Assembly (NCBI GenBank): GCA_003576845.1
Contig: QEVJ01000001.1
Coordinates: forward strand, 92,537-156,536
DNA: 64,000 nt
Source: Planctomycetota bacterium
GTDB taxonomy: Bacteria; Planctomycetota; Planctomycetia; Pirellulales; PLA5
Reading direction: 5' to 3'
The position numbers and the translations under genes were made by a program. Below are positions 3,206 to 60,110 of the stretch, in pieces. A model generated the notes under the pieces. The model saw only the letters and a list, made by a program, of their open reading frames with translations. It was not told the origin of the DNA and made no database searches. Each line of letters begins with the position of its first letter. The stretch's first letter is position 1.

Positions 3206-3282
3206 AACTGTGGGAGGCGAATCCCTTCGCCGACCGAATCGCTAACGCATGCCATCGGCGAAAGGATTCGCCTCCCACAGTT
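3206..3282. repeat. GC-rich REP-like palindrome (probable bidirectional terminator hairpin)
   Basis: AACTGTGGGAGGCGAATCCCTTCGCCGA (3206-3233) faces TCGGCGAAAGGATTCGCCTCCCACAGTT (3255-3282). The match is 27/28 complementary with a 21-nt loop. It lies between convergent genes ending at 3153 and 3302. Confidence 0.8.
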
Positions 3283-14186: not shown

Positions 14187-15680
14187 ATGACTCGACGCGC
14201 GGGCATTTCGGCGGCGCGGCTCTTCGTCGCTTTGCTGACGCTCGTTCTTTGCGCCCAGCACGCCGCCGCCTTCGACGAAATCGAAGACGCGCTGCGGGCA
14301 AGCGATGCCGAGTTTCGCGACGAACTCGCGGCGCTCGCCGAACAGTGCCGGGCCGTGGGCGAGCTCGATGCCGCCAAGAAACTCGCCGCTTGGCACGTCG
14401 AGCGAAGCCACTCACGATTCGTCGTCTTCGACATCGACGACGCGGCACAGTGGGCCGACGCCGCGACCGATTCCTGGCAGGCGAAGTTCGTCGCCCTACG
14501 AACGGTCCGGGCTGCACGGTTGTTCGACATCGCCCACAAGGCCGCCAAACTCAAACGCCGCAGCGAGGCCTACGCGCTTCTTTGGGAAACGCTTCGCGAA
14601 GATCCGCAACATGCCGAGGCCCGGCGAATGTTGGGGTTCGAGCGAGTTGGCGATCGCTGGGCATTGCCGTTTGCGGCGAAGCAATTGCGAATCGGCCGCG
14701 TGTGGCACAAGCAATTTGGCTGGATCGCGGCCGAAGACGTGGCCCGCTACGAGCAAGGCGAGCGAAAATCCGGTGACCGCTGGGTTTCGGCCGAGCAGGA
14801 CGCCCGCCGCCACCGGGAAATCCGCAATGGCTGGCGAGTCGAAACCGAGCATTTCGTCGTCACCACGAACCACAGTCTCGAAGAGGGTGTGCGGCTCGCC
14901 ACCGAGTTGGAGCGGCTCCACCGCGCTTGGCGGCTGGTGTTCGTCGACTATTGGATGGCCGACGGCGAGTTCGAGAAGTTGTTTGCCCCGGCCGACAAGC
15001 CGGAGAAATCGGCGTTCGTGCCCCCGCCGGAACGAAAGAACCGCCACCGCGTAACGTGCTATCGCGACCGCGAGGAATACGTGCGGGCCCTGCAAACCGC
15101 TCAGCCGCGCGTCGCCATGTCGCTGGGCGTTTATCTCGACAACGGCCGGTGTGCATACTTTTTCGCAGGCGACGAACAGCACCCGGCGACCGTGCTGCAC
15201 GAAGCGACGCATCAGTTGTTCAAGGAGTCGAAAGCCACGACGAAACAGCCCGGCACGCGGCACGGGATGTGGCTCATCGAGGCGGCCGCGTGTTACATGG
15301 AGTCGCTCAGGCCCTACGACGGTTACGACACCGTCGGCGAACGCGATGCGGGGCGATTCCCGGCGGCCGTGGAGAAAATCACCGAGCAGTTCTATGTGCC
15401 GCTCGCCGAGCTTGCGGCCATGTCGTCGGACGATCTGCAGCGGCATCGCGACGTGGCGAAGGTCTACAGCCAGGCCGCAGGCGCCATGACGTTCCTGCTG
15501 CACGCAGACGAAGGCCGCTATCGCCTGCCGGCGATGGTGACGCTCGATGCGCTCTATCAAGGCCGCGCCGTTCCGGGCACACTCGCCGCCGCCTGCGACA
15601 AGACCTACGAAGAACTCGACACGGCGTACGTTGAGTTCATCAAGGCGCAAACGAACGGGCGAATTAAGAATGCAGAATGA
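14187..15680 (+). CDS. Secreted DUF1570-like protein with HExxH-type motif (putative metallopeptidase)
   Basis: Internal ATG of track ORF 14094-15680. It begins MTRRAGISAARLFVALLTLVLCAQHAAA (signal peptide). A VLHEATHQLF motif sits in the C-terminal half. The last codons and the stop lie inside the heptamer repeat at 15668-15709. Confidence 0.7.
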   Translation: MTRRAGISAARLFVALLTLVLCAQHAAAFDEIEDALRASDAEFRDELAALAEQCRAVGELDAAKKLAAWHVERSHSRFVVFDIDDAAQWADAATDSWQAKFVALRTVRAARLFDIAHKAAKLKRRSEAYALLWETLREDPQHAEARRMLGFERVGDRWALPFAAKQLRIGRVWHKQFGWIAAEDVARYEQGERKSGDRWVSAEQDARRHREIRNGWRVETEHFVVTTNHSLEEGVRLATELERLHRAWRLVFVDYWMADGEFEKLFAPADKPEKSAFVPPPERKNRHRVTCYRDREEYVRALQTAQPRVAMSLGVYLDNGRCAYFFAGDEQHPATVLHEATHQLFKESKATTKQPGTRHGMWLIEAAACYMESLRPYDGYDTVGERDAGRFPAAVEKITEQFYVPLAELAAMSSDDLQRHRDVAKVYSQAAGAMTFLLHADEGRYRLPAMVTLDALYQGRAVPGTLAAACDKTYEELDTAYVEFIKAQTNGRIKNAE

Positions 15681-15754
15681 AGAATGCAAAATGAAGAATG
15701 AAGAATGCACTCGCCACTCGGCATTCTTCACTCTTCGTTCTGCATTTTGCATTG
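15666..15754. repeat. Palindromic intergenic element with 7-nt word arms
   Basis: The left arm at 15668-15709 is GAATGCA GAATGAA GAATGCA AAATGAA GAATGAA GAATGCA. The right arm at 15721-15753 is GCATTCTTCACTCTTCGTTCTGCATTTTGCATT, an imperfect complement. It overlaps the stop codon at 15678-15680. Confidence 0.8.
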
Positions 15755-21465: not shown

Positions 21466-23778
21466 ATGCGCAACGCTCGTCTGCAATTCGCCATTCTCCT
21501 TGCCGCGGCGCTGCTGCATGCGCTCGGCGCGATCGGCACGTCCGAATGCTTTGCCGATGACAAAACGACGCCCGAGGGCCCTGGCGCAGCGATCTATCGC
21601 GACCAGTGCATCTCGTGTCACGGCGAGCAAGGCGAAGGGACGAACGAGTACAAACGCGCTTTGGCCGGCGACCGGTCCGTGGTCGAACTGACAAAGTTCA
21701 TCCACGACACGATGCCCAAGGACTCTGCGGAGGACTGCGTCGGGCCGGACGCCGAGCGGGTGGCGAAGTACATTTACGAGGCGTTCTACTCGAAAGACGC
21801 CCAAGCCCGGCTCCATCCGCCGCGGATCGAGCTGGCGCGGCTCACGGTGCGGCAGTATCGCAACGCCCTGGCCGATCTGATCGGGAGCTTTCGGGACCCC
21901 GGCGAAGCGCCCGCCGAGCGCGGACTCAAGGGCGAGTATTACAAATCGTCGCGGCCGCGGGGACGCGATCGCGAGTTCGAGCGGGTCGATCGGACGATCG
22001 CCTTCGACTTCAAGGATTCGAGTCCCGATCCCGACAAGATCAAGCCCGAGGAGTTTTCCGCGCGGTGGCGGGGCAGCGTGTTCGCCCCCGATACGGGCGA
22101 GTACGAGTTTATCGTCAAGACCGAGAACGGCGCGCGATTGTGGGTCAACGACGACCAGAAGCCGCTCATCGACGCTGGCGTGAAGTCGGGCGACGACCGC
22201 GAGTTCCGGGCGACGATCTGGCTCGTAGGAGGGCGATGGTATCCGCTGCGGCTGGAGTTTCTCAAGTCGAAGGAGCCGACCGCGTCGATTGCGCTCCGGT
22301 GGAAGCCGCCGCACCTGGCGCCGCACGCGATCGATGAGCGCCATCTGTCGACCGCGCACGTTCCGGAAGTCTACGCCTTCGCAACGCCGTTCCCGCCGGA
22401 CGACAAGAGCGTCGGCTACGAGCGCGGGACGTTCGTGTCGAAGGCCTGGGACGCGGCTACGACCGAAGCGGCGATCGAAACGGCTGCCTACGTCGAAGCA
22501 AATCTCCGCGAACTGGCCGGAGCGAGCGACCGCGACGGCGACCGCGATGCACGGCTCCGCGAGTTTTGCCAGAAGTTCGTCGAACGGGCATTTCGCCGGC
22601 CTCTGGCGGATGACGAACGGCGGTTGTACATCGATCGACAGTTCGACGAAGCCGGCAATCCCGGAACGGCCGTCAAGCGGGTCGTGCTGCTCGCGCTCAA
22701 GTCGCCGCGATTCTTGTTTCGCGAGTTGGGAACCGACGAAGTCGACGGGTACGACGTCGCCGAGCGGCTGGCGTTTGGACTGTGGGATTCGCTGCCGGAC
22801 GCGGCGCTGCTCAAAGCTGCCGCCGCGGGCGAGTTGGCCACCCGCGAACAAGTGGCGAGTCACGCCCGGCGGATGGCCGGGGACGAGCGGGCGAAGGCGA
22901 AGCTGCGCGAGTTCCTGTTGTTGTGGCTCCGCGTCGATCAGCCGCTGGAACTGTCGAAAGACAAGGCACTCTTCGCCGATTTCGATGCGGACGTCGCGTC
23001 CGACCTGCGGCGGTCGCTGGAGTTGCTGCTCGACGACGTGATCGAGGGTGAGAAGGCCGATTTCCGTGCGTTGCTCGCGACCGACGAAGTCTGGCTCAAC
23101 GGGCGGCTCGCGAAAGTTTACGGCGCCGAGCTGCCGCCCGACGCCGACTTTACGAAGGTCAAGCTCGACGATGGGCAGCGGGCCGGCGTCGTTTCGCATC
23201 CCTATTTGATGGCGACCTTCGCCTATTCCGCGGCCAGTTCGCCGATTCATCGAGGCGTGTTCGTGTCGCGAAGTCTACTCGGCCGAGCGTTGCGGCAACC
23301 GCCCGAGGCCGTCGCGCCGCTGGCCCCGGACTTGCACCCCGACCTCACCACGCGCGCGCGAACCGTGTTACAAACCAGTCCCGAGGCATGTCAAATGTGT
23401 CACGGGATGATTAACCCGCTGGGATTCGCGCTGGAAAACTTTGACGCCGTCGGCCGATACCGGAAGGAAGAGAAAGGCAAGCCGATCGATGCGGTCGGGC
23501 AGTATCTGACCCGCGAGGGAGACGAGCGAAAGTTTGCCGGTCCGCGAGAGCTTGCCGACTTCCTGCTCGCCAGCGACGAGGCCCGCGAGGCGTTCGCCGA
23601 GCAGTTGTTTCACTACATGGTCCAGCAACCGATTCGAGCCTACGGCAACGAGACCCTGCCGCGGCTCAAGCAGGAGTTCGTACAAAGCGATCACGATATT
23701 CGGGCCGCCTTGGTGGAAATCATGGCGGCGTCGGCGTTACAATCGCGGAAGACGGCGACGGGCGCGGTGAGTAAATGA
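21466..23778 (+). CDS. Planctomycete cytochrome-c / PA14 / DUF1592-DUF1588-family protein
   Basis: Internal ATG of track ORF 21319-23778 (MRNARLQFAILLAAALLHALG signal peptide). It has a CISCHGEQGEG heme-c site and a PA14-like segment (GLKGEYY...FSARWRGSVFAPDTGEYEFIVKTENGARLWVND). The C-terminal CQMCHGMINPLGFALENFDAVGRYR is typical of DUF1588/1585. Confidence 0.85.
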   Translation: MRNARLQFAILLAAALLHALGAIGTSECFADDKTTPEGPGAAIYRDQCISCHGEQGEGTNEYKRALAGDRSVVELTKFIHDTMPKDSAEDCVGPDAERVAKYIYEAFYSKDAQARLHPPRIELARLTVRQYRNALADLIGSFRDPGEAPAERGLKGEYYKSSRPRGRDREFERVDRTIAFDFKDSSPDPDKIKPEEFSARWRGSVFAPDTGEYEFIVKTENGARLWVNDDQKPLIDAGVKSGDDREFRATIWLVGGRWYPLRLEFLKSKEPTASIALRWKPPHLAPHAIDERHLSTAHVPEVYAFATPFPPDDKSVGYERGTFVSKAWDAATTEAAIETAAYVEANLRELAGASDRDGDRDARLREFCQKFVERAFRRPLADDERRLYIDRQFDEAGNPGTAVKRVVLLALKSPRFLFRELGTDEVDGYDVAERLAFGLWDSLPDAALLKAAAAGELATREQVASHARRMAGDERAKAKLREFLLLWLRVDQPLELSKDKALFADFDADVASDLRRSLELLLDDVIEGEKADFRALLATDEVWLNGRLAKVYGAELPPDADFTKVKLDDGQRAGVVSHPYLMATFAYSAASSPIHRGVFVSRSLLGRALRQPPEAVAPLAPDLHPDLTTRARTVLQTSPEACQMCHGMINPLGFALENFDAVGRYRKEEKGKPIDAVGQYLTREGDERKFAGPRELADFLLASDEAREAFAEQLFHYMVQQPIRAYGNETLPRLKQEFVQSDHDIRAALVEIMAASALQSRKTATGAVSK

Positions 23779-23863
23779 AGAATGCAGAATGCGAAATGAA
23801 GAATGAGGGACGCCGTCGTGGCGGTACCACCGACAATTTTTCATTCTTCATTTTGCACTTTGC
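23776..23863. repeat. Palindromic intergenic element with 7-nt word arms
   Basis: The left arm (T)GAAGAAT GCAGAAT GCGAAAT GAAGAAT GA spans 23776-23806 and starts at the stop codon. The right arm TTTTTCATTCTTCATTTTGCACTTTGC spans 23837-23863. It lies between the DUF1592 and DUF1552 genes. Confidence 0.75.
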
Positions 23864-23884
23864 CTTGGCTTAAGGAGCGGTCAC

Positions 23885-26161: not shown

Positions 26162-26278
26162 CGGTCGAAAGGCTCAGGCGGTCTCGTCAAACGGAGAATC
26201 GGAGCACCGTCGGCGCTTCGTCCAATTCGTGCCGCGCCGCGGTCGGAAGACCGCGGCACGGCCCGAATCGAAGTGCGT

Positions 26279-27866: not shown

Positions 27867-27981
27867 CGAAGTGTCCTTGCCATTCGCACAGGGAGCCATG
27901 AACGAACGCGGCGGCGGACGAATGGTATTCGTGCCGCCGCCGCGTGTTGGTTGTTGCAAGGCAACTGTCGCGGCACGACGC

Positions 27982-30126: not shown

Positions 30127-30173
30127 GAAAACCTCACTAAAAAGGGGTCGGGAGTCTTTTGTAAAGGCGGCAT

Positions 30174-32324: not shown

Positions 32325-32335
32325 GGCTTATCTTC

Positions 32336-33085: not shown

Positions 33086-33104
33086 GCAGCGGCGGGGCGC
33101 TCGT

Positions 33105-33209
33105 GGAGGATTGAGGTTAGAGGTTGGAGGTTGGAGAAAAGGAGGTTCGTAGGAAGCAATTATTATCGAGGTGTGTTTTCCTCAATCCTCAATCCTCGCT
33201 CTTCAATCC
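33105..33209. repeat. Palindromic intergenic element with 7-nt word arms
   Basis: The left arm at 33106-33140 is GAGGATT GAGGTTA GAGGTTG GAGGTTG GAGAAAA. The right arm at 33180-33209 is CCTCAAT CCTCAAT CCTCGCT CTTCAAT CC. It lies between the DJ-1 stop and the TMEM175 start. Confidence 0.75.
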
Positions 33210-33214
33210 TTTGT

Positions 33215-33820: not shown

Positions 33821-33869
33821 GGTTCGGGTTCCTTTAGCGACGGTTGTGGCTGTGGTGTGGTGTGCTCGT

Positions 33870-33971
33870 GTAGGGTGGGTCGAACGAAGCAAGGCCCACC
33901 GGCGGCTGGCTCTGCATACTTGAATCTTGCGCGATGCTTTGGTGGGCCTCACTTCGTTCGACCCACCCTAC
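33870..33971. repeat. GC-rich REP-like palindrome, class GTAGGGYGGGTCGAACGAAG..GGCCCACC
   Basis: GTAGGGTGGGTCGAACGAAGCAAGGCCCACC (33870-33900) faces GGTGGGCCTCACTTCGTTCGACCCACCCTAC (33941-33971). The same word pair recurs at 59931-60110. Confidence 0.8.
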
Positions 33972-33986
33972 GATGTTCGGTTCGGG

Positions 33987-35747: not shown

Positions 35748-35788
35748 CGTGAAGCTCTTGGTCGGATGCGAGAATGGGCTGGTTCTTC

Positions 35789-35969
35789 AAACACAGAGAT
35801 CACGGAGGACACCACAGAGGGCACGGAGTATTGATGACTGATGAGTGATGAACGATGAACTAAATGCGGGCGCGGCCAAAAAAAGTTCATCATTCCTCGT
35901 TCATCAGTCATCACTCATCACTTGCATTCCTCCGTGCTCGCTGCGCCGTCCTCCGTGACCTCTGTGTTT
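35789..35969. repeat. Large composite palindromic element (outer CACRGAG words, inner 7-nt words)
   Basis: The left half is AAACACAGAGATCACGGAGGACACCACAGAGGGCACGGAG followed by TGATGAC TGATGAG TGATGAA CGATGAA (35832-35859). The right half is GTTCATC ATTCCTC GTTCATC AGTCATC ACTCATC followed by CTCCGTGCTCGCTGCGCCGTCCTCCGTGACCTCTGTGTTT. Confidence 0.85.
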
Positions 35970-36035
35970 AAGCTAATGACTCGAGCGGCGAACTGTGGCA
36001 CGATCTCGCGACCGTGCCACAACCGCAAATAGCAA

Positions 36036-36899
36036 CTACCACCCGTACCGCGTGACACCCTTTTCGAGCACGTCGACCAGTACGCGGCCGCATTCGCGCG
36101 ACGAGGCGGTCGAGCGGCTGGTGATGAACGGGTAGTCGACGATCACGGACGTTTCGTGGCCGACGTTGCCGATGAACTGACCTTCCGGGCCGACGGCGTC
36201 GCGGAGGATGTATTCGAGCGGGTAGAACGGCGCGCCGAAGTTCACGTAACCTTCGCCGAAGCCCTTTTTCGTGCCGTCGATGAAGTGCGGGCCTTCGAAG
36301 CCGGTTCCGTCGAGATAGTCGTAGTCGAGCGGGTGACCGGTGACGCGACGGCCAGCGATCAGGCTCCGCTTTTCGCGGATATCGCGGGCGAATGCCAGGC
36401 AGGTCACTCCGTAGCACTCGGCGGCGATCGGTTTGTTGAGCTTCGCAAAGCCGAGGACGAGGTCGTGAACGCGGCTGTTATTGGCCAGGTCGACCAGCGC
36501 GCCGCTACCGCCGACGATCACGAGCGCGTCGTACTTGGTCAGTTCGTCGGCGACGATCGCATCGACGCGCTTGTGATAGGCCTCCATGTCGCGGAGATAG
36601 GTCGGCGAGCTGGGGTAGGCCCGCTGCGGGAACCACTGCTTGAGGCTCTTCGGCGAATCCATGCGGCCGCTTTGCGTGAACGTCCGGACCTTTTCGGCCA
36701 TCTCGGCGGTCGTAACGCTCCGGCCGAGCGGTGGGTCGATGTACTTGGGGTCCATCGAAACGGTCAGTGCGGTCGGCTTCTGCCCCGTCGGCGTGAGGAA
36801 CTCGACCTTGTAGCCGGCCCGATCGCACGCTTCGAGCGGGCCGATCAGTTCTTCGCCCCAATAACCCCATTCGGACACGAGAAACAGGATATTCTTCAC
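36036..36899 (-). CDS. Type-1 glutamine amidotransferase-like / DJ-1 superfamily protein
   Basis: GTG start at 36899 with GGGAGA 7 nt upstream, inside track ORF 36036-36953. It reads VKNILFLVSEWGYWGEELIGPLEACDRAGYKVEFLTP... and YDALVIVGGSG, with the nucleophile-elbow region PIAAECYGVTCLA. Confidence 0.78.
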   Translation of the reverse strand: MKNILFLVSEWGYWGEELIGPLEACDRAGYKVEFLTPTGQKPTALTVSMDPKYIDPPLGRSVTTAEMAEKVRTFTQSGRMDSPKSLKQWFPQRAYPSSPTYLRDMEAYHKRVDAIVADELTKYDALVIVGGSGALVDLANNSRVHDLVLGFAKLNKPIAAECYGVTCLAFARDIREKRSLIAGRRVTGHPLDYDYLDGTGFEGPHFIDGTKKGFGEGYVNFGAPFYPLEYILRDAVGPEGQFIGNVGHETSVIVDYPFITSRSTASSRECGRVLVDVLEKGVTRYGW

Positions 36900-37180
36900 G
36901 ACGATTCTCCCGGTGGACGATGGATGAGGCCGATCGCGCGATCGGCGACGCAAGCAGGTGCAGGCAGGAATCGAAGGCGGTCGGCAGCGCGACGCGCTCG
37001 GAACGCATATTGGCTGCCGAGCAAACTTAGCTTCCTGTTTGCGCGCTTCGGCGTGCGGTCAAGTTCGATCTCGCGCACTCCGCACGGTTCGATGCCCGTC
37101 CCAATTCGCGTGGTTCCGAATGTGCGGACCGTGGCGGCTTTCGGCGATTCGCGGCGGCGATAAGAAACAAGTCGGTACTT

Positions 37181-37334
37181 TTTTAACGCAGAGCGCGCGG
37201 AGGTCTCGCAGAGGACGCGGAGGAGGAGAAACGTAGCGAGACGTATCGTAAATCTCTGCGAAATCTGCTGGTGGACCTGATCAGCAAATGACTTCTCTGC
37301 GTCCTTTGCGAGACCTCTGCGCTCTGCGTTAAAA
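37181..37334. repeat. Composite palindromic element (CGCAGAG/CGCGGAG words) in a divergent intergenic region
   Basis: TTTTAACGCAGAGCGCGCGGAGGTCTCGCAGAGGACGCGGAGG (37181-37223) faces CTCTGCGTCCTTTGCGAGACCTCTGCGCTCTGCGTTAAAA (37295-37334). Confidence 0.8.
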
Positions 37335-37416
37335 AGCCAACCTGCTCGAGTTCCGCCTCGGATTTTCGTCCTATCTTTGCAGTGACTATGCCACCCGTTC
37401 TCAGGAGACGTAATCC

Positions 37417-37869
37417 ATGCCGACGCTGACCACCGATGCCGCGCCGTTGGCCGCGGCCGAAGTCAAGGAACTTGCCGCCACGTGGTATAAGAAGCTCGAC
37501 GTCCACGCGCCGCTCGTCGATTTGTTGCCGCTGGTCGACGAGGACGCGGAAATGAAGTTCCCGGAAGCCACGCTCCGCGGCAAAGCGGAGTTCGAAGGCT
37601 GGTACGAGCGTGTGATTCGCGTGTTCTTCGACGAAGTCCACACGCTTAAGTCGGTCGACGCGACGCCGACCAAGACCGGCGCCGACGTGAAGGTGGTCGT
37701 CCACTGGGAAGCGAGCGTCTGGAATCCGCCCGCAGCCAAAAGCCAGCGGATCAAGCTCGACGCGTATCAGACTTGGAAGGTGCGACGCTCGCCGATCACC
37801 GGAGAACCGGTCATTGCAACGTACATCGTGGACGAACTCAAGTACGACGCGGGTTCGGCGAAGCTGTAG
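37417..37869 (+). CDS. NTF2-like (SnoaL-like) fold protein
   Basis: Track ORF of 150 aa. The size, the helix-then-curved-sheet pattern (WYKKLDVHAP...; VKVVVHWEASVW...; YQTWKVRR) and an adjacent paralogous-type gene support the call. The fold assignment is tentative. Confidence 0.6.
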   Translation: MPTLTTDAAPLAAAEVKELAATWYKKLDVHAPLVDLLPLVDEDAEMKFPEATLRGKAEFEGWYERVIRVFFDEVHTLKSVDATPTKTGADVKVVVHWEASVWNPPAAKSQRIKLDAYQTWKVRRSPITGEPVIATYIVDELKYDAGSAKL

Positions 37870-37889
37870 GTCGTCGCCTCGCTCACATG

Positions 37890-37935
37890 CTCCTGGCTCC
37901 TGACTTCGAGGTATTCAGGAGACAGGAGTCAGGAG
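37890..37935. repeat. Short palindromic element with 7-nt word arms
   Basis: GCTCCTG GCTCCTG ACTTCGA ... faces CAGGAGA CAGGAGT CAGGAGT. It lies between the two NTF2-like genes. Confidence 0.6.
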
Positions 37936-37977
37936 TGCCGAATTCGCATTCATTCACACTTACCCGGAGTTGTCAGC

Positions 37978-38394
37978 ATGACCACCGCCACCGTCAACGC
38001 CACGAGCAACGTTCCCGACACGAAGCTCGGCCGGCTTTATGAAGAGCACATTCGCTTGATTCTCGCCAAGGACATCGAGGCGATTCTCGACCAATACACG
38101 GACGATGCGGTACTCATCAGCAGCTTCGAGAAGAAGCCGCGATACTTCCGCGGACGCAAGCAGCTTCGCGAGCATTTTCAAGGCATCCTTGGCATCGAGG
38201 GCCTGGAATCGAAGATCGCATTCTGGGCCGAAACGCAGAATCCCGAAACGCTGATGGTCGTCGAGGCGATCGCCATGCAAACGGCCGACGGCGAAGCGAG
38301 CATGCGGTTCGCCGATAGCTGGGTGCTCAAGGGCGGCAAGATTGCGATCCACTTTGCCGGCATGACGCAGTATCCGGACGGCTCGGTGGCGTAA
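37978..38394 (+). CDS. NTF2-like / SnoaL-like protein
   Basis: Track ORF of 138 aa. LYEEHIRLILAKDIEAILDQYTDDAVLISSF... and ADSWVLKGGKIAIHF match the SnoaL-like pattern. Confidence 0.65.
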   Translation: MTTATVNATSNVPDTKLGRLYEEHIRLILAKDIEAILDQYTDDAVLISSFEKKPRYFRGRKQLREHFQGILGIEGLESKIAFWAETQNPETLMVVEAIAMQTADGEASMRFADSWVLKGGKIAIHFAGMTQYPDGSVA

Positions 38395-38410
38395 GTCATG
38401 TCCATTACCT

Positions 38411-38565
38411 AACCACAGAGGGCACAGAGAACACAGAGGAAATGCAAAAGGCAAAATGAAGAATGAAACATGCAGGGCGCGGAGTTCGTTCCACGATTCC
38501 TCTTCTTTCATTTTTCATTTTGCATTCTTCATTCTTCCTCCGTGTTCTCTGTGTCCTCTGTGGTT
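38411..38565. repeat. Large composite palindromic element (outer CACAGAG words, inner 7-nt words)
   Basis: The left half is AAC CACAGAG GG CACAGAG AA CACAGAG GA followed by AATGCAA AAGGCAA AATGAAG AATGAAA. The right half is the mirror TCTTTCATTTTTCATTTTGCATTCTTCATTCTT followed by CCTCCGTGTTCTCTGTGTCCTCTGTGGTT. Confidence 0.88.
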
Positions 38566-38597
38566 GAGAAACCAACCTCCCACACGGACAGCGAACC

Positions 38598-39788
38598 ATG
38601 AAATACAAGTTGCTCGGCCGATCCGGCTTGCGGGTTTCGGAACTTTGCCTCGGTTGCGCCACTTTCGGCACGAACTGGGGTTCGATCGGCTCGGATAAAC
38701 AGGAGTCGGGCCGCATCTTCGACGCCTTCGTCGAAGCGGGCGGCAACTTCATCGACACGTCGAATCGCTACCAGGAAAGCCAGTCGGAGGAGTTCCTGGG
38801 CACATTCATTCAAGGCGACCGCGACCGCCTGGTCCTGGCGACGAAATACTCGCTGTTCGACGGCTTCTCCGACGGCCGCGATCCGAACGCCTGCGGCAAT
38901 CATCGCAAGAACCTGTTCCGTTCGGTCGAGGGCTCGCTCAAGCGGCTCAAGACCGACTACATCGACCTATTGTGGATTCACATCTACGACTACACGACAC
39001 CGATCGAAGAGATCCTGCGGGCGCTCGACGATCTGGTGCGCCAGGGCAAGGTGCATTACATCGGCGCGTCGAACTTCCCAGCATGGTGGATGGCGAAGGC
39101 GAACACGCTCGCCGACTTCCACGGCTTTTCGCCGTTCATCGCCACGCAGCTCGAGTACAGCATCACCGAACGCTCCTGCGAGCCGGAGTTTCTGCCGATG
39201 GCCCACGAGATGGACATCGGACTCGTTGCGTGGTCGGCGCTCGGCGGCGGGATGTGTACCGGTAAGTACAGTCGCGGCCGCTTGGATAATACGATCCCGC
39301 AGCGGCTCGTCGACGAAATCGACCCGGCGAAGCGGCATCATTGGCGCGCGATGACCGAGCGCAATCTCGGCATCATGGAGAAGGTCAACCGCGTCGCCGA
39401 TCGGATCGGCCGCCCAACGGCGCAGGTGTCGCTCCGCTGGCTGATGCAGCAACCGGTCGTGACGATCCCGGTTTTCTCCGCGCGCACGGTCGAGCAAGCC
39501 AAGGAAGACCTGGGCTGCGGGGATTTTGAGCTTTCGACACAGGATATGCGCGAACTCACGGTCGCCAGCCAACCGGCGCTCGGCTCGATCATGCCGGACG
39601 TGGGCGCATATCCTTACCCGATGCTCGAATACGGCAGTCCCGCGTTGCCGGAGTTTTATTCGCGATTCCTGCTGTTCGGGCAGGTCGAAGAGAAGATCGT
39701 CAATCACCGCCGGTTGTTGCCGTATCAATATCACCGCGATGCGCCGGCGACGAAGGGCGCGCCGCAGCCGCAGCAGCTGAAGGCGTAA
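38598..39788 (+). CDS. Aldo/keto reductase
   Basis: Track ORF of 396 aa. MKYKLLGRSGLRVSELCLGCATFG...FDAFVEAGGNFIDTSNRYQ...SEEFLG...LATKY...IDLLWIH...YIGASNF is the canonical AKR motif series. Confidence 0.9.
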   Translation: MKYKLLGRSGLRVSELCLGCATFGTNWGSIGSDKQESGRIFDAFVEAGGNFIDTSNRYQESQSEEFLGTFIQGDRDRLVLATKYSLFDGFSDGRDPNACGNHRKNLFRSVEGSLKRLKTDYIDLLWIHIYDYTTPIEEILRALDDLVRQGKVHYIGASNFPAWWMAKANTLADFHGFSPFIATQLEYSITERSCEPEFLPMAHEMDIGLVAWSALGGGMCTGKYSRGRLDNTIPQRLVDEIDPAKRHHWRAMTERNLGIMEKVNRVADRIGRPTAQVSLRWLMQQPVVTIPVFSARTVEQAKEDLGCGDFELSTQDMRELTVASQPALGSIMPDVGAYPYPMLEYGSPALPEFYSRFLLFGQVEEKIVNHRRLLPYQYHRDAPATKGAPQPQQLKA

Positions 39789-39917
39789 GACGTAAGTGGA
39801 CAGTGGGCAGTGAACAGCGGATAGAAAGTCGCAGTCGCGACATGACCACGAGTGCTGCCCGCTATCCACGGCTCACACTCCCCCGACCCCTGACCTCCGA
39901 CCCCTGATCCTTTCGCC
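39786..39917. repeat. Intergenic spacer that parses entirely as 7-nt words, ending in a C-rich tract at the start codon
   Basis: The spacer reads GTAAGAC GTAAGTG GACAGTG GGCAGTG AACAGCG GATAGAA ... CACTCCC CCGACCC CTGACCT CCGACCC CTGATCC TTTCGCC, then ATG (39918). It contains the inner imperfect inverted repeat GTGGACAGTGGGCAG / CTGCCCGCTATCCAC. Confidence 0.7.
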
Positions 39918-41552
39918 ATGCCCAGCACATTCGACTACATCGTCATCGGCGCCGGTTCTGCCGGCTGCGTTGTCGCCAATCGGTTGACAGAAGACTCGAA
40001 CGCCTCGGTGCTCCTGCTCGAAGCGGGCGGGCCGGACACGAGCGCCGACATTCACGATCCGACCGGCTTCGTGAAGTTGATGCGCTCGCCGGTCGATTGG
40101 GCCTATCAGTCCAATGCCGAGCCGGGCCTTGCCGGGCGTAGGCTTACGCTCAATCGCGGCAAGACGCTCGGCGGCACGAGCGCGACGAACGCGATGATCT
40201 TCATCCGCGGGCATCGCCTCGACTTCGATCATTGGAATTATCTCGGCAACGAAGGCTGGAGCTACGACGACGTGCTCCCGTACTTCAAGAAGTCCGAAGA
40301 CAACGAACCGGGCAGTTCGCGGTTTCGCGGCGTCGGCGGGCCGGTCAGCGTGCGGAACTACACGTCGTACACCACGCCGTCGCCGGCGGCCGAAGCGTTC
40401 GTCGCCGCAGGGCAGGAACTCGGCTTTCGCGGCGGGCCGACTTGGGACTTCAACATCGACGCCGCCGAAGAGTCGACCGGCTTCTACCAATTCAGCATCA
40501 CCCGCGACGGCCGCCGGGCGAGCACGGCGGTCGCGTATCTGAATCCGATCCTGGGCCGCGAGAACCTGACGATCACGACCGGAGCGCAAGTCACGCGGAT
40601 CCTGCTGGACAACGACCGCGTCGTCGGCGTCGAGTACGTCAAGGACGGCAAGAAGTGCGAAGTCCGCTGCAACGCCGAAGTCGTCCTGTCGGCCGGAGCG
40701 TTCGACTCGCCAAAAATCTTGATGAACTCCGGTATCGGTCCCGCGGACGAATTGCGGTCCAAAGGCGTCGAGGTTGCTTTCGATCTCCCCGGCGTGGGGC
40801 AGAACCTGCAGGATCACCTGCTGATGCCGTCGATCTTTAAGTGCAAGCGCGAGCAGCCCGTGCCGACGCTGCTCGCCGAAGGCGGCTTGCTGACCCGGAC
40901 GCGCGCGGGGCTCGGTTTGGCCGCGCCGGACTTGCAGATCAACTTCAACGCGACGATTCCCGCCCTCGTGCCGTCGGATTGTCCGAAGATCGGGCCAAGC
41001 TTTACGTTCATCAGCATTTTGGTGCGGCCGCAGAGCATCGGGTACGTCACGATCGCCGGCAACGACCCGCTCGCCGCGCCGGTGATTCAGGAGAACTACT
41101 TGCAGTGCGAAGCGGACGTGCAGGTGCAGCTCAAGGCGATCGAACTCGCCCGCACGATGGTTCGCACGAAAGCGTTTGCCGAGTTGTACGACGGAGAGGC
41201 GCTTCCCGGTCCGGGCAAGAGTGAAACCGAGCTGCGGCAGTACGTCCGCACGCATGCCTCGACGATTTGGCATCCGGTCGGCACGTGCAAGATGGGCCGC
41301 GACCGGATGGCCGTCGTCGATCCGCAGCTTCGCGTGCACGGAGTTCGCGGGCTGCGCGTCGCCGATGCGTCGATCATGCCGACGATCGTCAGCGCGAATC
41401 CGAACGCGGCGATCATTATGATCGGCGAGAAGGCCGCGGACCTGATTAAGGCAACGACGCCGACACCGACGAGCGACGAGTGTGCATCGACTTCGCCGCG
41501 TACATGGCGGGCCGAGCGTCCCTACGTGAACGAGGCTGCAACGGCGTGTTAA
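39918..41552 (+). CDS. GMC-family FAD oxidoreductase (choline dehydrogenase-like)
   Basis: Track ORF of 544 aa. FDYIVIGAGSAGCVVANRLTED is the FAD GxGxxG motif. GGTSATNAMIFIRG, and HPVGTCKMG...VVDPQLRVHGVRGLRVADASIMP, are the GMC signatures. Confidence 0.92.
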   Translation: MPSTFDYIVIGAGSAGCVVANRLTEDSNASVLLLEAGGPDTSADIHDPTGFVKLMRSPVDWAYQSNAEPGLAGRRLTLNRGKTLGGTSATNAMIFIRGHRLDFDHWNYLGNEGWSYDDVLPYFKKSEDNEPGSSRFRGVGGPVSVRNYTSYTTPSPAAEAFVAAGQELGFRGGPTWDFNIDAAEESTGFYQFSITRDGRRASTAVAYLNPILGRENLTITTGAQVTRILLDNDRVVGVEYVKDGKKCEVRCNAEVVLSAGAFDSPKILMNSGIGPADELRSKGVEVAFDLPGVGQNLQDHLLMPSIFKCKREQPVPTLLAEGGLLTRTRAGLGLAAPDLQINFNATIPALVPSDCPKIGPSFTFISILVRPQSIGYVTIAGNDPLAAPVIQENYLQCEADVQVQLKAIELARTMVRTKAFAELYDGEALPGPGKSETELRQYVRTHASTIWHPVGTCKMGRDRMAVVDPQLRVHGVRGLRVADASIMPTIVSANPNAAIIMIGEKAADLIKATTPTPTSDECASTSPRTWRAERPYVNEAATAC

Positions 41553-41595
41553 CGCCCATTGCCCCCGGTGTGTTCACCGAGGGCTAAATGGTATT

Positions 41596-41617
41596 CCCCG
41601 AATCCCGAATCCCAACC
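41596..41617 (+). repeat. C-rich 7-nt word tract abutting a start codon
   Basis: CCCCGAA TCCCGAA TCCCAAC C lies immediately before ATG 41618. Confidence 0.6.
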
Positions 41618-42097
41618 ATGAACATCTCCTTTGCTCACGTCGCCCTGAATTGCCACGACATCGCGACGACGGAGGCGTTTTACACGAAGCACTTCGGTTT
41701 TCGCCGCGCTCGGTCGGTCGATCTCGGCGGCGGCAAACAAATCGTGTTTCTCAAGTCGGGGGACGTGTATTTGGAGCTGTTCCAAGCCGATGCGCTTTCG
41801 CCATACGAGCAGCCCAAGAATGACGGCCCGGCGTGGCCGGGCGTGCGACACATTGCGTTTCAAGTGAAGGACGTTGACGCAAAGCTTGCCGAGATGGGAA
41901 GCGACGCGAAGCTTTCGTTCGGGCCCTTCGGGTTCGATAGCTTCATTCCCGGTTGGCGGACGGCGTGGATTACCGATCCCGACGGGACGATCGTGGAGAT
42001 CAGCCAAGGGTTTACCGACGACGCGACGCTCATCAACTACCGCACGTCGCCCGAGAGCAGTCGGGCCAGCGATACGGCGCCGGTTGGAGCCGCGTGA
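41618..42097 (+). CDS. VOC-family (glyoxalase/bleomycin-resistance/dioxygenase fold) protein
   Basis: Internal ATG of track ORF 41588-42097. It reads MNISFAHVALNCHDIATTEAFYTKHFGF...YLELF...RHIAFQVKDVD...TDPDGTIVEI, with paired beta-alpha-beta-beta-beta modules carrying His/Glu metal ligands. The track N-terminal extension translates the C-rich repeat. Confidence 0.8.
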   Translation: MNISFAHVALNCHDIATTEAFYTKHFGFRRARSVDLGGGKQIVFLKSGDVYLELFQADALSPYEQPKNDGPAWPGVRHIAFQVKDVDAKLAEMGSDAKLSFGPFGFDSFIPGWRTAWITDPDGTIVEISQGFTDDATLINYRTSPESSRASDTAPVGAA

Positions 42098-49500: not shown

Positions 49501-49585
49501 ACCACAGAGGTCACGGAGGAGGAGCACAGAGGGACACGGAGGAATGTAGAAGGCAGAATACAACATGAAGAATGCGGGATGCGGA
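49501..49585. repeat. Solo half-element (CACRGAG words followed by 7-nt words) without an obvious mirror arm
   Basis: AC CACAGAG GT CACGGAG GAGGAG CACAGAG GGA CACGGAG is followed by GAATGTA GAAGGCA GAATACA ACATGAA GAATGCG GGATGCG. The same word classes occur at 35789 and 38411, but I see no complementary arm before the sulfatase start. Confidence 0.65.
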
Positions 49586-57102: not shown

Positions 57103-57192
57103 GGGTGCCACTGCTGGCTTGTCCAGAAGTGAGAATTGCCGATTGGGCTTGCCTCGCGAATCCCACTGCTGGACAAGCCAGCAGTGGCACCC
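57103..57192. repeat. Perfect 24-bp inverted repeat (REP-like) between convergent genes
   Basis: GGGTGCCACTGCTGGCTTGTCCAG (57103-57126) faces CTGGACAAGCCAGCAGTGGCACCC (57169-57192), 24/24 complementary. The 42-nt loop itself contains imperfect inner arms. Confidence 0.85.
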
Positions 57193-59930: not shown

Positions 59931-60110
59931 GTAGGGCGGGTCGAACGAAGTGAGGCCCACCAGGCGTTGAGGAATTGTGAATAGCAAGTGGCGAATGGTG
60001 AATTGTGCATGGAATCGTGGCGTCCGAAGAACATTCACCATTCACAATTCACCATTTTCAATTCGCAATTGCGTCCCGATGCCGGTGGGCCTCTCTTCGT
60101 TCGACCCACC
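59931..60110. repeat. Composite palindromic element (outer REP class GTAGGG..GGCCCACC, inner 7-nt GTGAATN/ATTCACN words)
   Basis: The outer arms are GTAGGGCGGGTCGAACGAAGTGAGGCCCACC (59931-59961) and GGTGGGCCTCTCTTCGTTCGACCCACC (60084-60110). The inner arms are GGAATTG TGAATAG CAAGTGG CGAATGG TGAATTG, facing ATTCACC ATTCACA ATTCACC ATTTTCA ATTCGCA (60033-60067). It lies between the convergent kinase and cheB genes. Confidence 0.85.

What the first reader, a model, noticed from the sequence alone, without database searches (positions are those of the whole stretch)
38411..38565. Family of composite palindromic intergenic elements whose arms are degenerate 7-nt (and about 9-nt) tandem words
At least 11 intergenic sites carry inverted repeats. 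Their arms are tandem arrays of a short word rather than arbitrary stems. Examples: (a) 15668-15709 is GAATGCA GAATGAA GAATGCA AAATGAA GAATGAA GAATGCA, facing GCATTCTT...TGCATT. (b) 35832-35859 is TGATGAC TGATGAG TGATGAA CGATGAA, facing GTTCATC ATTCCTC GTTCATC AGTCATC ACTCATC. (c) 33106-33140 is GAGGATT GAGGTTA GAGGTTG GAGGTTG, facing CCTCAAT CCTCAAT CCTCGCT CTTCAAT. (d) 60033-60067 is ATTCACC ATTCACA ATTCACC ATTTTCA ATTCGCA, facing GTGAAT-type words. (e) 37890-37935 has GCTCCTG x2 facing CAGGAGN x3. In the large copies (38411-38565, 35789-35969, and the solo half at 49501-49585) the 7-mer module is nested inside an outer module of CACRGAG words spaced about 9 nt apart. At 37181-37334 the outer words are CGCAGAG/CGCGGAG. 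At 59931-60110 the outer module is a GC-rich REP word. The word identity changes between copies. The architecture (outer module, 7-mer module, unique loop, mirror image) is kept, so the structure is conserved rather than the sequence. Several copies start at or overlap stop codons (15678, 23776). They also create spurious N- and C-terminal extensions in the ORF track (MKNEECKMKNEE, MKNAGCG). I do not recognise this as a named repeat family, and none of the copies has the U-tract of a classical intrinsic terminator.
Basis: seen in the sequence. Interest (0 to 1): 0.65.

Follow-up and report, generated by a model that had tools for sequence, protein, structure and literature searches.

The report
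Mosaic palindromes built from tandem words
Between many genes of this planctomycete-type genome sit long DNA palindromes whose arms are 7- or 9-letter words repeated in tandem; they belong with known bacterial intergenic repeats, but one word module, TTAAC(CACAGAGNN)3-4, recurs almost unchanged in many phyla and I found no name for it.

Summary
38411-38565 is a 155-nt imperfect palindrome (RNA fold z = -13.5). Its outer arms are CACAGAG words at 9-nt spacing and its inner arms are GAATGAA-type heptads. Nine more tandem-word sites and three plain REP-like palindromes lie in intergenic gaps of the window.

The elements are modular and lack U-tracts, but the outer modules are sequence families, not just shared structures. 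The arms at 38411, 49501, 35789 and 37181 align with each other. Two other outer modules are GTAG-tagged REP pairs.

Syntenic copies of the same gene cluster in related genomes carry unrelated palindromes, or none, in the same gaps. I found no sense-strand bias and no restriction to gene 3' ends.

My best reading is REP/BIME-like mosaic repeats. They are built from short tandem arrays that change by slippage and turn over fast, and any RNA-hairpin effect is incidental. Inverted heptanucleotide-array pairs are already described in Xanthomonas, so the kind is known.

The unexpected result is that TTAAC(CACAGAGNN)3-4 arms occur in at least 120 stretches from many phyla, against about 5 expected by chance. 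I found them in no Rfam family or paper.

The parts
38411..38441 (.). Focal element, outer left arm: AAC cap plus three CACAGAG words at 9-nt spacing
   Evidence: Inverted repeat I1, 94% complementary; TRF period 9
38441..38474 (.). Focal element, inner left arm: degenerate heptads AATGCAA AAGGCAA AATGAAG AATGAAA CATGCA
   Evidence: Inverted repeats I2-I6 pair it in several registers; sequence read
38475..38505 (.). Focal element, unique GC-rich loop
   Evidence: Largely unpaired, with only short local pairs, in the MFE and centroid folds
38506..38537 (.). Focal element, inner right arm: TTTCATT-type heptads x4.6
   Evidence: TRF period 7, 88% matches
38535..38565 (.). Focal element, outer right arm: three CTCYGTG words plus GTT
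   Evidence: Inverted repeat I1; TRF period 9
35789..35969 (.). Composite element. Outer arms have four CACRGAG words (35789-35833 / 35925-35969). Inner arms have TGATGAN heptads (35832-35861 / 35884-35920).
   Evidence: its arms align with the focal arms
49501..49585 (+). Solo arm with both modules: TTAAC cap, four CACRGAG words, then GAATGNA-type heptads. It has no partner arm. It lies upstream of the sulfatase gene, whose start was called at 49610 in the Logan contig.
   Evidence: No fold (z +0.7); aligns with the focal left arm over both modules; gene call in L001
37181..37336 (.). Palindrome whose arms are four CGCRGAG words. It lies between divergently transcribed genes (DJ-1/PfpI on the minus strand, SnoaL on the plus strand).
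   Evidence: z -9.9; gene orientation; aligns with the CACRGAG arms
15662..15753 (.). GAATGMA heptad palindrome with 14- and 21-nt higher-order periods. It overlaps the TAA stop of the upstream gene.
   Evidence: TRF periods 7, 14 and 21; inverted repeats pair in several registers; z -5.0
23774..23866 (.). GAATGMA heptad palindrome. The TGA of its first word is the stop codon of the PSD/PSCyt gene.
   Evidence: z -6.3
33104..33210 (.). GAGGTTG / CCTCAAT heptad palindrome
   Evidence: TRF period 7 on both arms; z -3.2, the weakest site
37889..37936 (.). GCTCCTG x2 facing CAGGAGN x3; the two arms have unequal word counts
   Evidence: z -5.2
39795..39870 (.). AGTGGAC-type heptad arm facing its complement
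   Evidence: z -4.2
59935..60110 (.). GTAG-tagged REP pair (59935-59961 / 84-110 of 60xxx, i.e. 60084-60110) enclosing a GGTGAAT/ATTCACC heptad palindrome (59972-60070). It lies between convergent genes.
33870..33971 (.). Same GTAG-tagged REP pair (GTAGGGTGGGTCGAACGAAG..GGCCCACC) with a plain loop and no word module
   Evidence: Inverted repeat I5, 94% complementary; z -9.9
57103..57192 (.). Unrelated GC-rich palindrome (GGGTGCCACTGCTGGCTTGTCCAG...) without tandem words
   Evidence: Inverted repeat I2; z -10.2
3206..3282 (.). Unrelated GC-rich palindrome between convergent genes, without tandem words
   Evidence: Inverted repeat I10, 96% complementary; z -9.7

Best explanation
These are mosaic intergenic palindromic repeats of the REP/BIME kind, in a planctomycete-type genome.

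The building block is an 'arm', a short tandem array of one word. There are two classes. One uses 7-nt words of many types, often containing TGA/TCA. The other uses 8-10-nt CRCRGAG words, usually 3-4 of them at 9-nt spacing behind a TTAAC cap.

Arms occur alone or as inverted pairs that can form 50-180-nt hairpins. Different arm types are nested or abutted, with nonamer or GTAG-REP arms outside and heptad arms inside.

Shown here:
- Arms at different loci are diverged copies of the same sequence families.
- The elements are confined to non-coding DNA.
- They sit in tandem, convergent and divergent gene gaps.
- Related genomes carry unrelated palindromes, or none, in the same gaps.

Inferred:
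- Arrays gain and lose whole words by replication slippage. A tandem-word arm still pairs after such a shift, so the palindrome survives.
- The elements persist as selfish or near-neutral DNA-level passengers of intergenic spacers.
- When transcribed inside an operon they would form stable RNA hairpins that may punctuate or stabilise transcripts, as REPs do. That would be a side effect, not the reason they exist.

How copies spread is unknown.
For: 1. Sequence families. The arms of 38411, 49501, 35789 and 37181 align with a shared word order (A1). GAATGMA words occur at 4 sites and the GTAG-REP at 2 sites.

2. Slippage signatures. 15662-15709 has 14- and 21-nt higher-order periods. Arms pair in several registers. 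37889 has 2 words against 3. Over 1.48 Mb of loci, period 7 dominates: 93 arrays, against 6 at period 5 and 29 at period 6. Roughly 40-50% of period 7-10 arrays have an inverted partner, against 0% for periods 6 and 12. The literature attributes the heptamer excess to polymerase slippage (PMC4679880, PMC4692102).

3. Turnover at fixed positions.
- SnoaL2|AKR gap: CACAGAG+GAATGAA in the window, an AATTGCA heptad palindrome in L123, GC-rich REP-like palindromes in L124 and L167, and only 65-116 nt with a short local stem or no strong hairpin in L126, L125 and L160.
- AKR|GMC gap: AGTGGAC heptads in the window, GTGATGA heptads in L126.
- In more distant genomes the same genes abut or overlap.

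4. Not specific to gene 3' ends or to one strand.
- 37181 lies between divergent genes.
- Of 147 CACRGAG elements from many phyla, 137 lie outside crude ORF calls. Paired (type I) elements split 11 tandem, 8 convergent and 6 divergent. Solo arms split 23 sense and 23 antisense.
- G-U pairs in the 8 co-oriented window hairpins number 28 on the sense strand and 25 on the antisense strand.

5. Strain polymorphism. Two Pseudoalteromonas shioyasakiensis strains differ in the number and arrangement of CACAGAG/CTCTGTG arms in one divergent gap, while the flanks are 89-92% identical.

6. Precedent. Xanthomonas has 70-75 convergent heptamer-array pairs per genome, intergenic and length-variable between species (PMC4692102). 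GTAG REPs occur in Planctomycetes (PMC3733652).
Against: - No transposase, RAYT or target-site duplication was found. No autonomous element was found in about 1.5 Mb of loci. Mobility is inferred from dispersed copies only.
- A neutral or selfish model does not explain why one word, with its 9-nt spacing and a TTAAC cap that was not part of the search pattern, is kept in phyla from 37% to 65% GC. It also does not explain why heptad words are enriched for TGA/TCA: 19 of 29 against 8.1 expected. Both hint at sequence-specific recognition or selection.
- In the window most copies start 0-20 nt after a stop codon. This is also what a 3'-end function would give.
- The strand tests are small (8 elements) or rest on crude gene calls.
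- No closely related strain of the source organism was available. The Logan contigs are 100% identical to the window.
Confidence: 0.5

Rival explanations
1. They are functional RNA elements. They would be U-tract-less transcription terminators or attenuators, or 3'-end / RNase III processing hairpins, that punctuate operons. On this view hairpin stability is what selection keeps, and the tandem words are just an easy way to build a long stem.
For: In the window, 8 of the paired tandem-word elements lie between co-oriented genes and begin 0-20 nt after the upstream stop codon. The folds are very stable, z -3 to -13. Most syntenic relatives carry some hairpin in the same gaps even where the sequence is unrelated. 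REPs are reported to lie mostly downstream of coding regions and to act as RNA elements (PMC3733652).
Against: 37181 lies between divergent genes. 49501 is a single arm with no fold. Cross-phylum copies are spread over tandem, convergent and divergent gaps, and solo arms show no strand preference, 23 against 23. G-U pairs show no sense-strand excess, 28 against 25. Whole gaps in the orthologous clusters fold better on the antisense strand in 23 of 29 informative cases, which is probably a composition effect. Several related genomes have no strong hairpin in the same gap, or have abutting genes. Several convergent gaps in the window are only 10-40 nt long and leave no room for a hairpin. The gap from hairpin to the next start codon is 19-48 nt, which leaves no room for a promoter if termination were efficient.
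Confidence: 0.2
2. The words, not the hairpin, are the functional unit. Each arm would be an array of binding sites for a sequence-specific factor, read as double- or single-stranded DNA or as RNA. The factor could be the enzyme that mobilises the elements, for example a hairpin- or ssDNA-recognising HUH transposase, by analogy with RAYT and the GTAG tag of REPs. It could instead be a widespread host protein. Palindromes would then simply be two arrays placed head to head.
For: - 183 arms from many phyla share the cap TT(A/C)AC at 62-81% per position, although the cap was not in the search pattern. Spacing is 9 nt in 324 of 416 cases, with 3-4 words per arm.
- Solo arms (95) outnumber paired arms (60 type I, 13 type II), and both inverted topologies occur.
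- Spacers between words are identical between paired arms in only 38% of cases, so the words rather than the pairing are what is kept.
- Heptad words share TGA/TCA far above expectation.
- Arms are orientation-independent with respect to genes.
Against: No candidate protein was identified and no gene association was seen. Heptad words are very diverse between genomes, which fits poorly with one conserved binder. Matches to known sites fail: T at position 4 of the DnaA box is almost absent from the cap (1%), and most words lack the GGA of CsrA/RsmE sites and lie in stems. The elements are absent from 5,426 E. coli genomes, so a universal host factor is unlikely.
Confidence: 0.25
3. They are an artefact: chance complementarity of low-complexity sequence, or a misassembly.
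For: Short-read contigs of the same organism break inside the focal palindrome, at 38419, 38439 and 38465. Palindromes are hard to assemble.
Against: Dinucleotide shuffles never reach the observed energies. Contigs from three runs are 100% identical to the window on both sides of the focal palindrome and run into it. One contig spans the neighbouring elements at 35789, 37181 and 37889. The same architecture occurs in finished isolate genomes and long-read chromosomes.
Confidence: 0.03

Closest known systems
Inverted pairs of heptanucleotide repeat arrays in Xanthomonas (GGGAATC; Rehm et al. 2015, PMC4692102), within the heptanucleotide long simple-sequence repeats of Mrazek et al. 2007
   Same: Both are tandem arrays of a degenerate 7-nt word. 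Both are intergenic. Both often occur as two convergent arrays on opposite strands that can form a stem-loop. Both vary in length between related genomes. Function is unknown in both.
   Different: Here there are many different, mostly A+T-rich words per genome rather than one G-rich, G-quadruplex-forming word. The arrays are nested inside or next to other modules (CRCRGAG nonamers, GTAG REPs). The host is a different phylum.
REP / REPIN elements with a GTAG tag, and the BIME mosaics of E. coli (PMC3733652, PMC3116915; the BIME description is from my own knowledge)
   Same: The outer modules at 33870 and 59935 are GTAG-tagged GC-rich palindromic pairs. More generally, both are extragenic, made of alternating-orientation arms joined by variable linkers, clustered in mosaics, turned over quickly and often placed inside operons.
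   Different: The heptad and CRCRGAG arms carry no GTAG or CGTC tag (their cap is TTAAC). They are internally tandem-repetitive. No RAYT gene was seen. Nothing similar exists in E. coli.
TAACTGA heptamer direct repeats of Beggiatoaceae, Cyanobacteria and Bacteroidetes (MacGregor 2015, PMC4679880), and cyanobacterial STRR heptamers (from my own knowledge)
   Same: A specific short word in tandem arrays, intergenic, shared by unrelated phyla with no known transfer mechanism. The window also has C-rich heptad arrays directly upstream of start codons (39880, 61509).
   Different: Those are almost always direct repeats close to start codons, with only one indirect repeat reported in the Beggiatoa genome. 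The window's main elements are inverted pairs close to stop codons.
MITEs such as Correia/NEMIS, ERIC and RUP (from my own knowledge)
   Same: Small size (50-200 nt), terminal inverted repeats, dispersed intergenic copies and presence/absence differences between genomes.
   Different: No target-site duplication, no related autonomous IS, and arms made of tandem words. Solo arms are common.
Intrinsic (Rho-independent) terminators
   Same: A stable hairpin shortly after a stop codon in most window copies.
   Different: No U-tract. Stems are 25-70 bp instead of 5-15 bp. Copies occur in divergent gaps and in either orientation.

Membership tests
GTAG-tagged REP / REPIN | Imperfect GC-rich palindrome of 20-40 bp carrying the tetranucleotide GTAG (or CGTC) at one end | tested here: met
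   This applies to the outer modules only. 33870 reads GTAGGGTGGGTCGAACGAAG..GGCCCACC and 59931 reads cGTAGGGCGGGTCGAACGAAG..GGCCCACC, each with its inverted partner.
GTAG-tagged REP / REPIN | The same tag on the heptad and CRCRGAG arms | tested here: not met
   The cap of the CRCRGAG arms is TT(A/C)AC. Heptad arms show no GTAG or CGTC tag.
GTAG-tagged REP / REPIN | A cognate RAYT (IS200/IS605-like tyrosine transposase) gene in the genome | not testable with these tools
   Only 64 kb of the genome is available. None of the 30 window proteins scanned against Pfam is a transposase.
Heptanucleotide LSSR / inverted heptamer-array pairs (Xanthomonas type) | Tandem array of at least 2-3 copies of a 7-nt unit, located in intergenic DNA | tested here: met
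   TRF finds period 7 at 15661, 23774, 33104, 33179, 35832, 35901, 37915, 38506, 39795 and 60032. All lie outside the genes.
Heptanucleotide LSSR / inverted heptamer-array pairs (Xanthomonas type) | Two arrays in convergent orientation on opposite strands, close together | tested here: met
   An inverted partner lies within 300 nt for 8 of 13 period-7 arrays in the set of loci chosen independently of repeats.
Heptanucleotide LSSR / inverted heptamer-array pairs (Xanthomonas type) | G-rich GGGNATC word with G-quadruplex potential | tested here: not met
   The words here are GAATGMA, TGATGAN, GAGGTTG, GGTGAAT, GCTCCTG and AGTGGAC. None has G3 tracts.
BIME (E. coli mosaic of REPs) | Clusters of palindromic units in alternating orientation, separated by conserved linker motifs | tested here: inconclusive
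   Alternating arms with two linker types are clear in Pseudoalteromonas, and nesting is clear in the window. None of the E. coli motifs is present. Binding of IHF or gyrase cannot be tested.
MITE | Terminal inverted repeats plus a target-site duplication, and a related autonomous IS | tested here: not met
   No direct duplication flanks 38411, 35789 or 37181. No transposase lies between long-range arm pairs in about 1.5 Mb; the ORF in L103 is not transposase-like by eye.
Intrinsic terminator | Short GC-rich stem followed by a U-tract on the sense strand, downstream of a gene | tested here: not met
   None of the elements is called by the terminator scan. One lies in a divergent gap. There is no sense-strand bias.
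Any Rfam family | Score at or above the family's gathering threshold | tested here: not met
   There are 0 hits in the window. Only sub-threshold eukaryotic miRNA-precursor hairpins appear. There are 0 hits on the elements in 12 loci from other phyla.
DnaA-box array | 9-mer TTATNCACA with T at position 4 | tested here: not met
   Cap plus first word reads TT(A/C)(A/G)CCACA. Position 4 is A in 74%, G in 23% and T in 1%. The later words share only CACA with the box.
Integron attC | RYYYAAC ... GTTRRRY cores, extrahelical bases, and a cassette array next to intI | tested here: not met
   The ends only loosely resemble the cores (CCTAAC...GTTGAGA). The flanking genes form a conserved syntenic cluster rather than cassettes. 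No integrase was found among the scanned proteins.

The most novel reading that the evidence does not exclude
TTAAC(CACAGAGNN)3-4 may be the signature of a new, very widespread class of miniature bacterial element or protein-recognition array. On this reading its partners, the TGA/TCA-cored heptad arrays, belong to the same system. A conserved factor, still unidentified, would read the words. That factor could be a mobilising enzyme or a nucleoid or RNA-binding protein. This would explain why the same word, spacing and cap persist from Bacteroidota (37% GC) to Planctomycetota and Acidobacteriota (65% GC), while the surrounding sequence and even the hairpin topology change.
Probability: 0.25. 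Interest if true: 0.8.

Novelty: new variant of a known kind. Interest (0 to 1): 0.55.

Why it matters
Within this window the elements mainly matter for annotation and assembly. They create false ORF extensions, they supply or overlap real stop codons, and they break short-read contigs.

More broadly, they show a conserved operon being filled with fast-changing palindromes. This gives a natural system for asking whether such hairpins alter operon expression.

The cross-phylum CACAGAG module is the part worth following. A 30-45-nt non-coding motif shared by Acidobacteriota, Planctomycetota, Verrucomicrobiota, Chloroflexota, Bacteroidota, Gemmatimonadota, several proteobacterial classes and Cyanobacteria is unusual. 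It appears in no Rfam family and in no paper I could find.

If a specific protein reads it, that would define a new repeat-and-factor system comparable to REP and RAYT. It could be tested directly in cultured carriers: Bacteroides finegoldii, Gemmatirosa kalamazoonensis and Pseudoalteromonas shioyasakiensis.

Tried and rejected
- Rfam at gathering and at E-value thresholds gave nothing but sub-threshold eukaryotic miRNA hairpins.
- The sigma-70 promoter and terminator consensus scans show no enrichment and no call on the elements.
- BLAST of the focal element found nothing in phages. A consensus arm found nothing in 5,426 E. coli genomes.
- I looked for strain variation in the source organism. 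Five Logan contigs from three sequencing runs are 100% identical to the window and give no polymorphism.
- I searched for an autonomous element between distant inverted arms. There were 7 long-range pairs. The one I inspected (L103) holds an unrelated 411-aa ORF.
- I tested for a sense-strand G-U excess as a sign of RNA-level selection. There is none in the window. The opposite trend over whole gaps is probably caused by C-rich sense strands.
- 'Stops in all three frames' does not explain period 7. Stop trinucleotides as a whole are not enriched (23 of 29 against 21.4 expected); only TGA/TCA is.
- A per-gap 70-nt minimum-energy scan did not discriminate in this GC-rich DNA and was dropped.
- Nesting of heptads with CACRGAG arms across phyla occurs in 12 of 140 elements. 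That is about 3 times the genome-wide expectation but no more than shared confinement to intergenic DNA would give.
- I considered these identities and rejected them against the sequence:
  - DnaA boxes: wrong base at position 4.
  - CsrA/RsmE GGA sites: most words lack GGA, the words lie in stems, and carriers include phyla I recall as lacking CsrA.
  - attC sites.
- I considered these only from memory and did not test them:
  - Tn7/Mu-type ends.
  - Type III restriction sites (CAGAG).
  - RNA polymerase pause motifs (TGYG). The type II topology, which places CACAGAG on the descending arm, does not fit that idea.
- Literature searches for CACAGAG/CTCTGTG repeats and for planctomycete or acidobacterial tandem-word palindromes found no description.
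Full report
**What is there**

The window is about 64% G+C. It encodes PSD/PSCyt-domain and DUF1552 proteins and sulfatases, which points to Planctomycetota. That assignment is an inference from domain content; no taxonomic marker was analysed.

At 38411-38565 there is a 155-nt imperfect palindrome with three layers:
- Outer arms, 31 nt and 94% complementary. Each is three CACAGAG words at 9-nt spacing behind an AAC cap.
- Inner arms, 28 nt and 86% complementary, made of degenerate GAATGAA-type heptads that pair in several registers.
- A 31-nt unique loop.

It folds at -87.7 kcal/mol as RNA (z = -13.5) and at z = -10.8 as DNA. None of 200 dinucleotide shuffles folds as well.

All the paired sites fold far better than shuffles, with z from -3.2 to -10. 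49501-49585 has no fold (z +0.7) and is a true single arm.

In total I count ten tandem-word sites. Three further palindromes have no internal word repeat (3206, 33870, 57103).

**More than chance, and intergenic**

I used a GC3-based gene map. After GC correction, no 100-nt coding window out of 2086 reaches fold z < -4. Four of 293 non-coding windows do. All inverted repeats with at least 82% complementarity lie in gaps.

Two elements overlap real stop codons (15678-80 and 23776-78). In the second case the TGA of the first heptad is the stop codon.

**It is not structure without sequence**

The arms of 38411, 49501, 35789 and 37181 align as one family (A1). All seven aligned arms keep the core cap AAC. 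They share a word order CRCAGAG / CRCGGAGG / CRCAGAGG / CRCGGAGGAATG. In 37181 every CAC has become CGC.

The left arms of 38411 and 49501 are alignable over both the nonamer and the heptad module. GAATGMA words recur at four sites.

The 'GC-rich REP word' at 59935 and 33870 is a GTAG-tagged REP in inverted pairs. That superfamily is described and is reported in Planctomycetes (PMC3733652).

So the window holds several dispersed repeat families combined as mosaics.

**Related genomes**

A metagenome scan with the adjacent aldo/keto reductase returned 53 loci. The surrounding cluster comprises a TPP enzyme, two DJ-1/PfpI, two SnoaL, AKR, a GMC oxidoreductase and a glyoxalase. It is syntenic in L167, L126/L170, L124, L123, L125 and L160, at 72-87% amino-acid identity.

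The same gaps hold non-homologous content:

| Gap | Window | Other loci |
|---|---|---|
| SnoaL2 / AKR | CACAGAG + GAATGAA | L123: AATTGCA heptad palindrome. L124, L167: GC-rich REP-like palindromes. L126, L125, L160: only 65-116 nt, with a short local stem or no strong hairpin. |
| AKR / GMC | AGTGGAC heptads | L126: GTGATGA heptad palindrome with 25-nt perfect arms |
| SnoaL1 / SnoaL2 | GCTCCTG | L126: TTTTCAG. L160: a direct CACTCAC array |

Each genome re-uses its own favourite words; AATTGCA occurs at two gaps in L123. In more distant genomes the same genes abut or overlap.

The elements are therefore dispensable for the cluster. They turn over faster than the genes diverge.

**Period**

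TRF over 1.48 Mb of loci gives 93 arrays at period 7, against 6 at period 5 and 29 at period 6. The 142 arrays at period 9 are inflated by the way the loci were chosen.

Roughly 40-50% of arrays at periods 7-10 have an inverted partner within 300 nt. None at periods 6 or 12 does.

This agrees with the literature. Heptanucleotides are the commonest long simple-sequence repeat in many bacteria, and the excess is attributed to polymerase slippage (Mrazek et al. 2007, as cited in PMC4679880 and PMC4692102). In Xanthomonas, 70-75 heptamer arrays per genome occur as convergent inverted pairs, intergenic and length-variable (PMC4692102). That is the closest described kind.

**DNA or RNA, terminator or not**

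None of the elements has a U-tract. One (37181) lies between divergent genes.

In the eight co-oriented window hairpins, G-U pairs number 28 on the sense strand and 25 on the antisense strand. The sense fold is the more stable in only three of the eight.

Whole gaps in the orthologous clusters fold better on the antisense strand in 23 cases against 6. I attribute this to C-rich sense strands, not to the hairpins themselves.

Hairpin-to-start distances of 19-48 nt leave no room for a promoter. Efficient termination at every element would therefore silence a conserved cluster.

These points argue against a dedicated terminator role. They do not exclude partial attenuation or RNA stabilisation.

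**The unexpected part: the CACAGAG module is cross-phylum**

I scanned one genome per GTDB species with CACAGAGNNCACRGAGN{2,6}CACRGAG. My estimate for uniform base composition is about 5 matches in 596 Gb on both strands.

The hits come from these groups:
- Acidobacteriota
- Planctomycetota
- Verrucomicrobiota
- Chloroflexota
- Bacteroidota (37-39% GC)
- Gemmatimonadota
- delta-, beta- and gamma-proteobacteria
- Cyanobacteria
- Firmicutes (Pelosinus)
- Spirochaetes
- candidate phyla
- two bins labelled archaeal

At least two hits are probably coding (L059, L071).

BLAST of the focal element also finds it in finished replicons of isolates:
- Gemmatirosa kalamazoonensis, 11 and 7 places on its two megaplasmids
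- Pseudoalteromonas shioyasakiensis
- Bacteroides finegoldii, for example in the dnaN / exonuclease gap

It is absent from phages and from 5,426 E. coli genomes.

Across 183 arms:
- The five bases before the first word were not part of the pattern, yet they read T(63%) T(62%) A/C(48/31%) A(74%) C(81%).
- Spacing is 9 nt in 324 of 416 cases.
- Arms have 3-4 words.

Arms occur as 60 CACAGAG..CTCTGTG pairs, 13 pairs in the opposite topology and 95 solos. Some 'solos' may have partners too degenerate for my regular expression to detect.

With crude ORF calls, 137 of 147 elements are non-coding. All three gap types are used. Solo arms show no strand preference, 23 against 23.

Spacers between words are identical in the two arms of one element in 38% of cases, against 11% for arms from different loci. 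The two arms of an element are therefore related, but it is the words that are conserved, not perfect pairing.

The same loci carry heptad palindromes. Some use the same word as the window (GAATGAA in a Bacteroides bin, L042). Some show the same nesting (L028: CACAGAG outside, GGTAAAA heptads inside). Adjacency of the two module types occurs in 12 of 140 elements. That is no more than shared confinement to intergenic DNA would give.

Heptad words are enriched for TGA/TCA: 19 of 29 against 8.1 expected.

Two P. shioyasakiensis strains differ in the number and arrangement of arms in one divergent gap, with flanks 89-92% identical. This is direct evidence of rapid rearrangement, and it resembles BIME clusters.

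**Interpretation**

The best-supported reading (confidence 0.5) is REP/BIME-like mosaic repeats.
- Arms are dispersed copies of tandem-word arrays that change by slippage.
- Inverted pairs make hairpins that tolerate register shifts.
- The elements occupy intergenic spacers, including spacers inside operons, as selfish or near-neutral DNA.
- RNA-hairpin effects are possible but secondary.

What this reading does not explain is the cross-phylum constancy of the CACAGAG word, its spacing and its cap, or the TGA/TCA bias of the heptads. Both fit better with recognition by a specific factor. I rate that rival at 0.25, and it is also the most novel reading.

A dedicated terminator or processing role is rated 0.2. 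An artefact is rated 0.03.

**Comparison with what is known, and novelty**

- As a kind, palindromes with tandem-heptamer arms are described (Xanthomonas).
- GTAG REPs and mosaic arrangements are described.
- The particular words, the nonamer CRCRGAG class with its TTAAC cap, the nesting, and the phylogenetic breadth were not found in Rfam 15 or in the searchable literature.

Absence from those sources does not prove that they are undescribed. I therefore rate this a new variant of a known kind, with moderate interest driven by the cross-phylum module.

**Limits**

- Only 64 kb of the source genome is available.
- No close strain was available for comparison.
- Gene calls for the foreign loci are crude.
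- The genome scan was truncated, so neither the true copy number nor the full taxonomic range is known.
- No expression data are available.

Noticed in passing
window 27982-42097; loci L123-L172: The genes around the finding form a cluster: GlcNAc-2-epimerase-like/STAS, isoamylase, DJ-1/PfpI x2, a TPP enzyme, SnoaL x2, aldo/keto reductase, GMC oxidoreductase and glyoxalase. It recurs with shuffled order in metagenomic contigs from 43% to 68% GC. It looks like a widely transferred catabolic or detoxification cluster of unknown role.
   Followed up: partly
window 39880-39904 and 61509-61543: C-rich heptad arrays in direct (not inverted) orientation sit immediately upstream of start codons: CCCCCGA/CCCCTGA x3.6 lies 13 nt before the GMC oxidoreductase ATG, and CCCCGAC x5 abuts the ATG at 61544 of the Trp/Tyr-tRNA synthetase gene. 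No Shine-Dalgarno-like sequence intervenes. This recalls the TAACTGA repeats upstream of start codons in Beggiatoaceae (PMC4679880).
   Followed up: no
window 38419-38465; L001, L002, L178-L180: All five short-read (Logan) contigs of the same organism, from three sequencing runs, end inside the focal palindrome and are otherwise 100% identical to the window. The element breaks de Bruijn assemblies.
   Followed up: yes
window 19328-19421 (minus strand): ARAGORN calls a 94-nt tRNA-Gly(tcc) inside the 1162-aa subtilase ORF (16072-19560). Its odd length and coding location suggest a false positive.
   Followed up: no
L022 5560-5800 (Candidatus Oscillochloris fontis): A purely direct arrangement: about 10 copies of CACAGAGGA are followed by about 7 copies of a second nonamer (CATAATCTG), with no inverted partner. 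This shows that the word arrays can expand well beyond 3-4 units.
   Followed up: no
L176 800-1700 and L181 400-1200 (Pseudoalteromonas shioyasakiensis, two strains): CACAGAG and CTCTGTG arms alternate inside tandem units of about 240 nt with two linker types. The cluster lies in a divergent gap between a methyltransferase gene and an EAL-domain gene. Unit number and composition differ between the strains. L069 (Acidobacteriota) shows a similar repeat of about 185 nt carrying the array.
   Followed up: partly
heptad arrays in the window and in loci L003-L175: The 7-nt words of palindromic arrays contain TGA/TCA far more often than shuffled words do: 19 of 29 against 8.1 expected. Stop trinucleotides as a class and ATG are not enriched. 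This is unexplained.
   Followed up: partly
L003 4826-5157 (Opitutaceae MAG): Rfam family 5_ureB_sRNA (RF02514) matches at 101 bits, E = 3e-25. The match lies a few hundred bases from a CACAGAG arm. It may simply reflect the antisense strand of a urease gene. It is unrelated to the finding.
   Followed up: no
L103 60-146 (Pirellulales MAG): Two CRCAGAG arrays, each preceded by TTAAAAATTTTTAGCC, lie directly upstream of a 411-aa ORF of unknown function. A reverse-oriented array lies 1.4 kb away.
   Followed up: no
window 26225-26262 and 27900-27945: These are ordinary GC-rich unique hairpins without word repeats. The first lies in the gap downstream of the minus-strand gene ending at 26279. The second lies next to the stop of the gene ending at 27982 and overlaps the small ORF call 27570-27959.
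   Followed up: no
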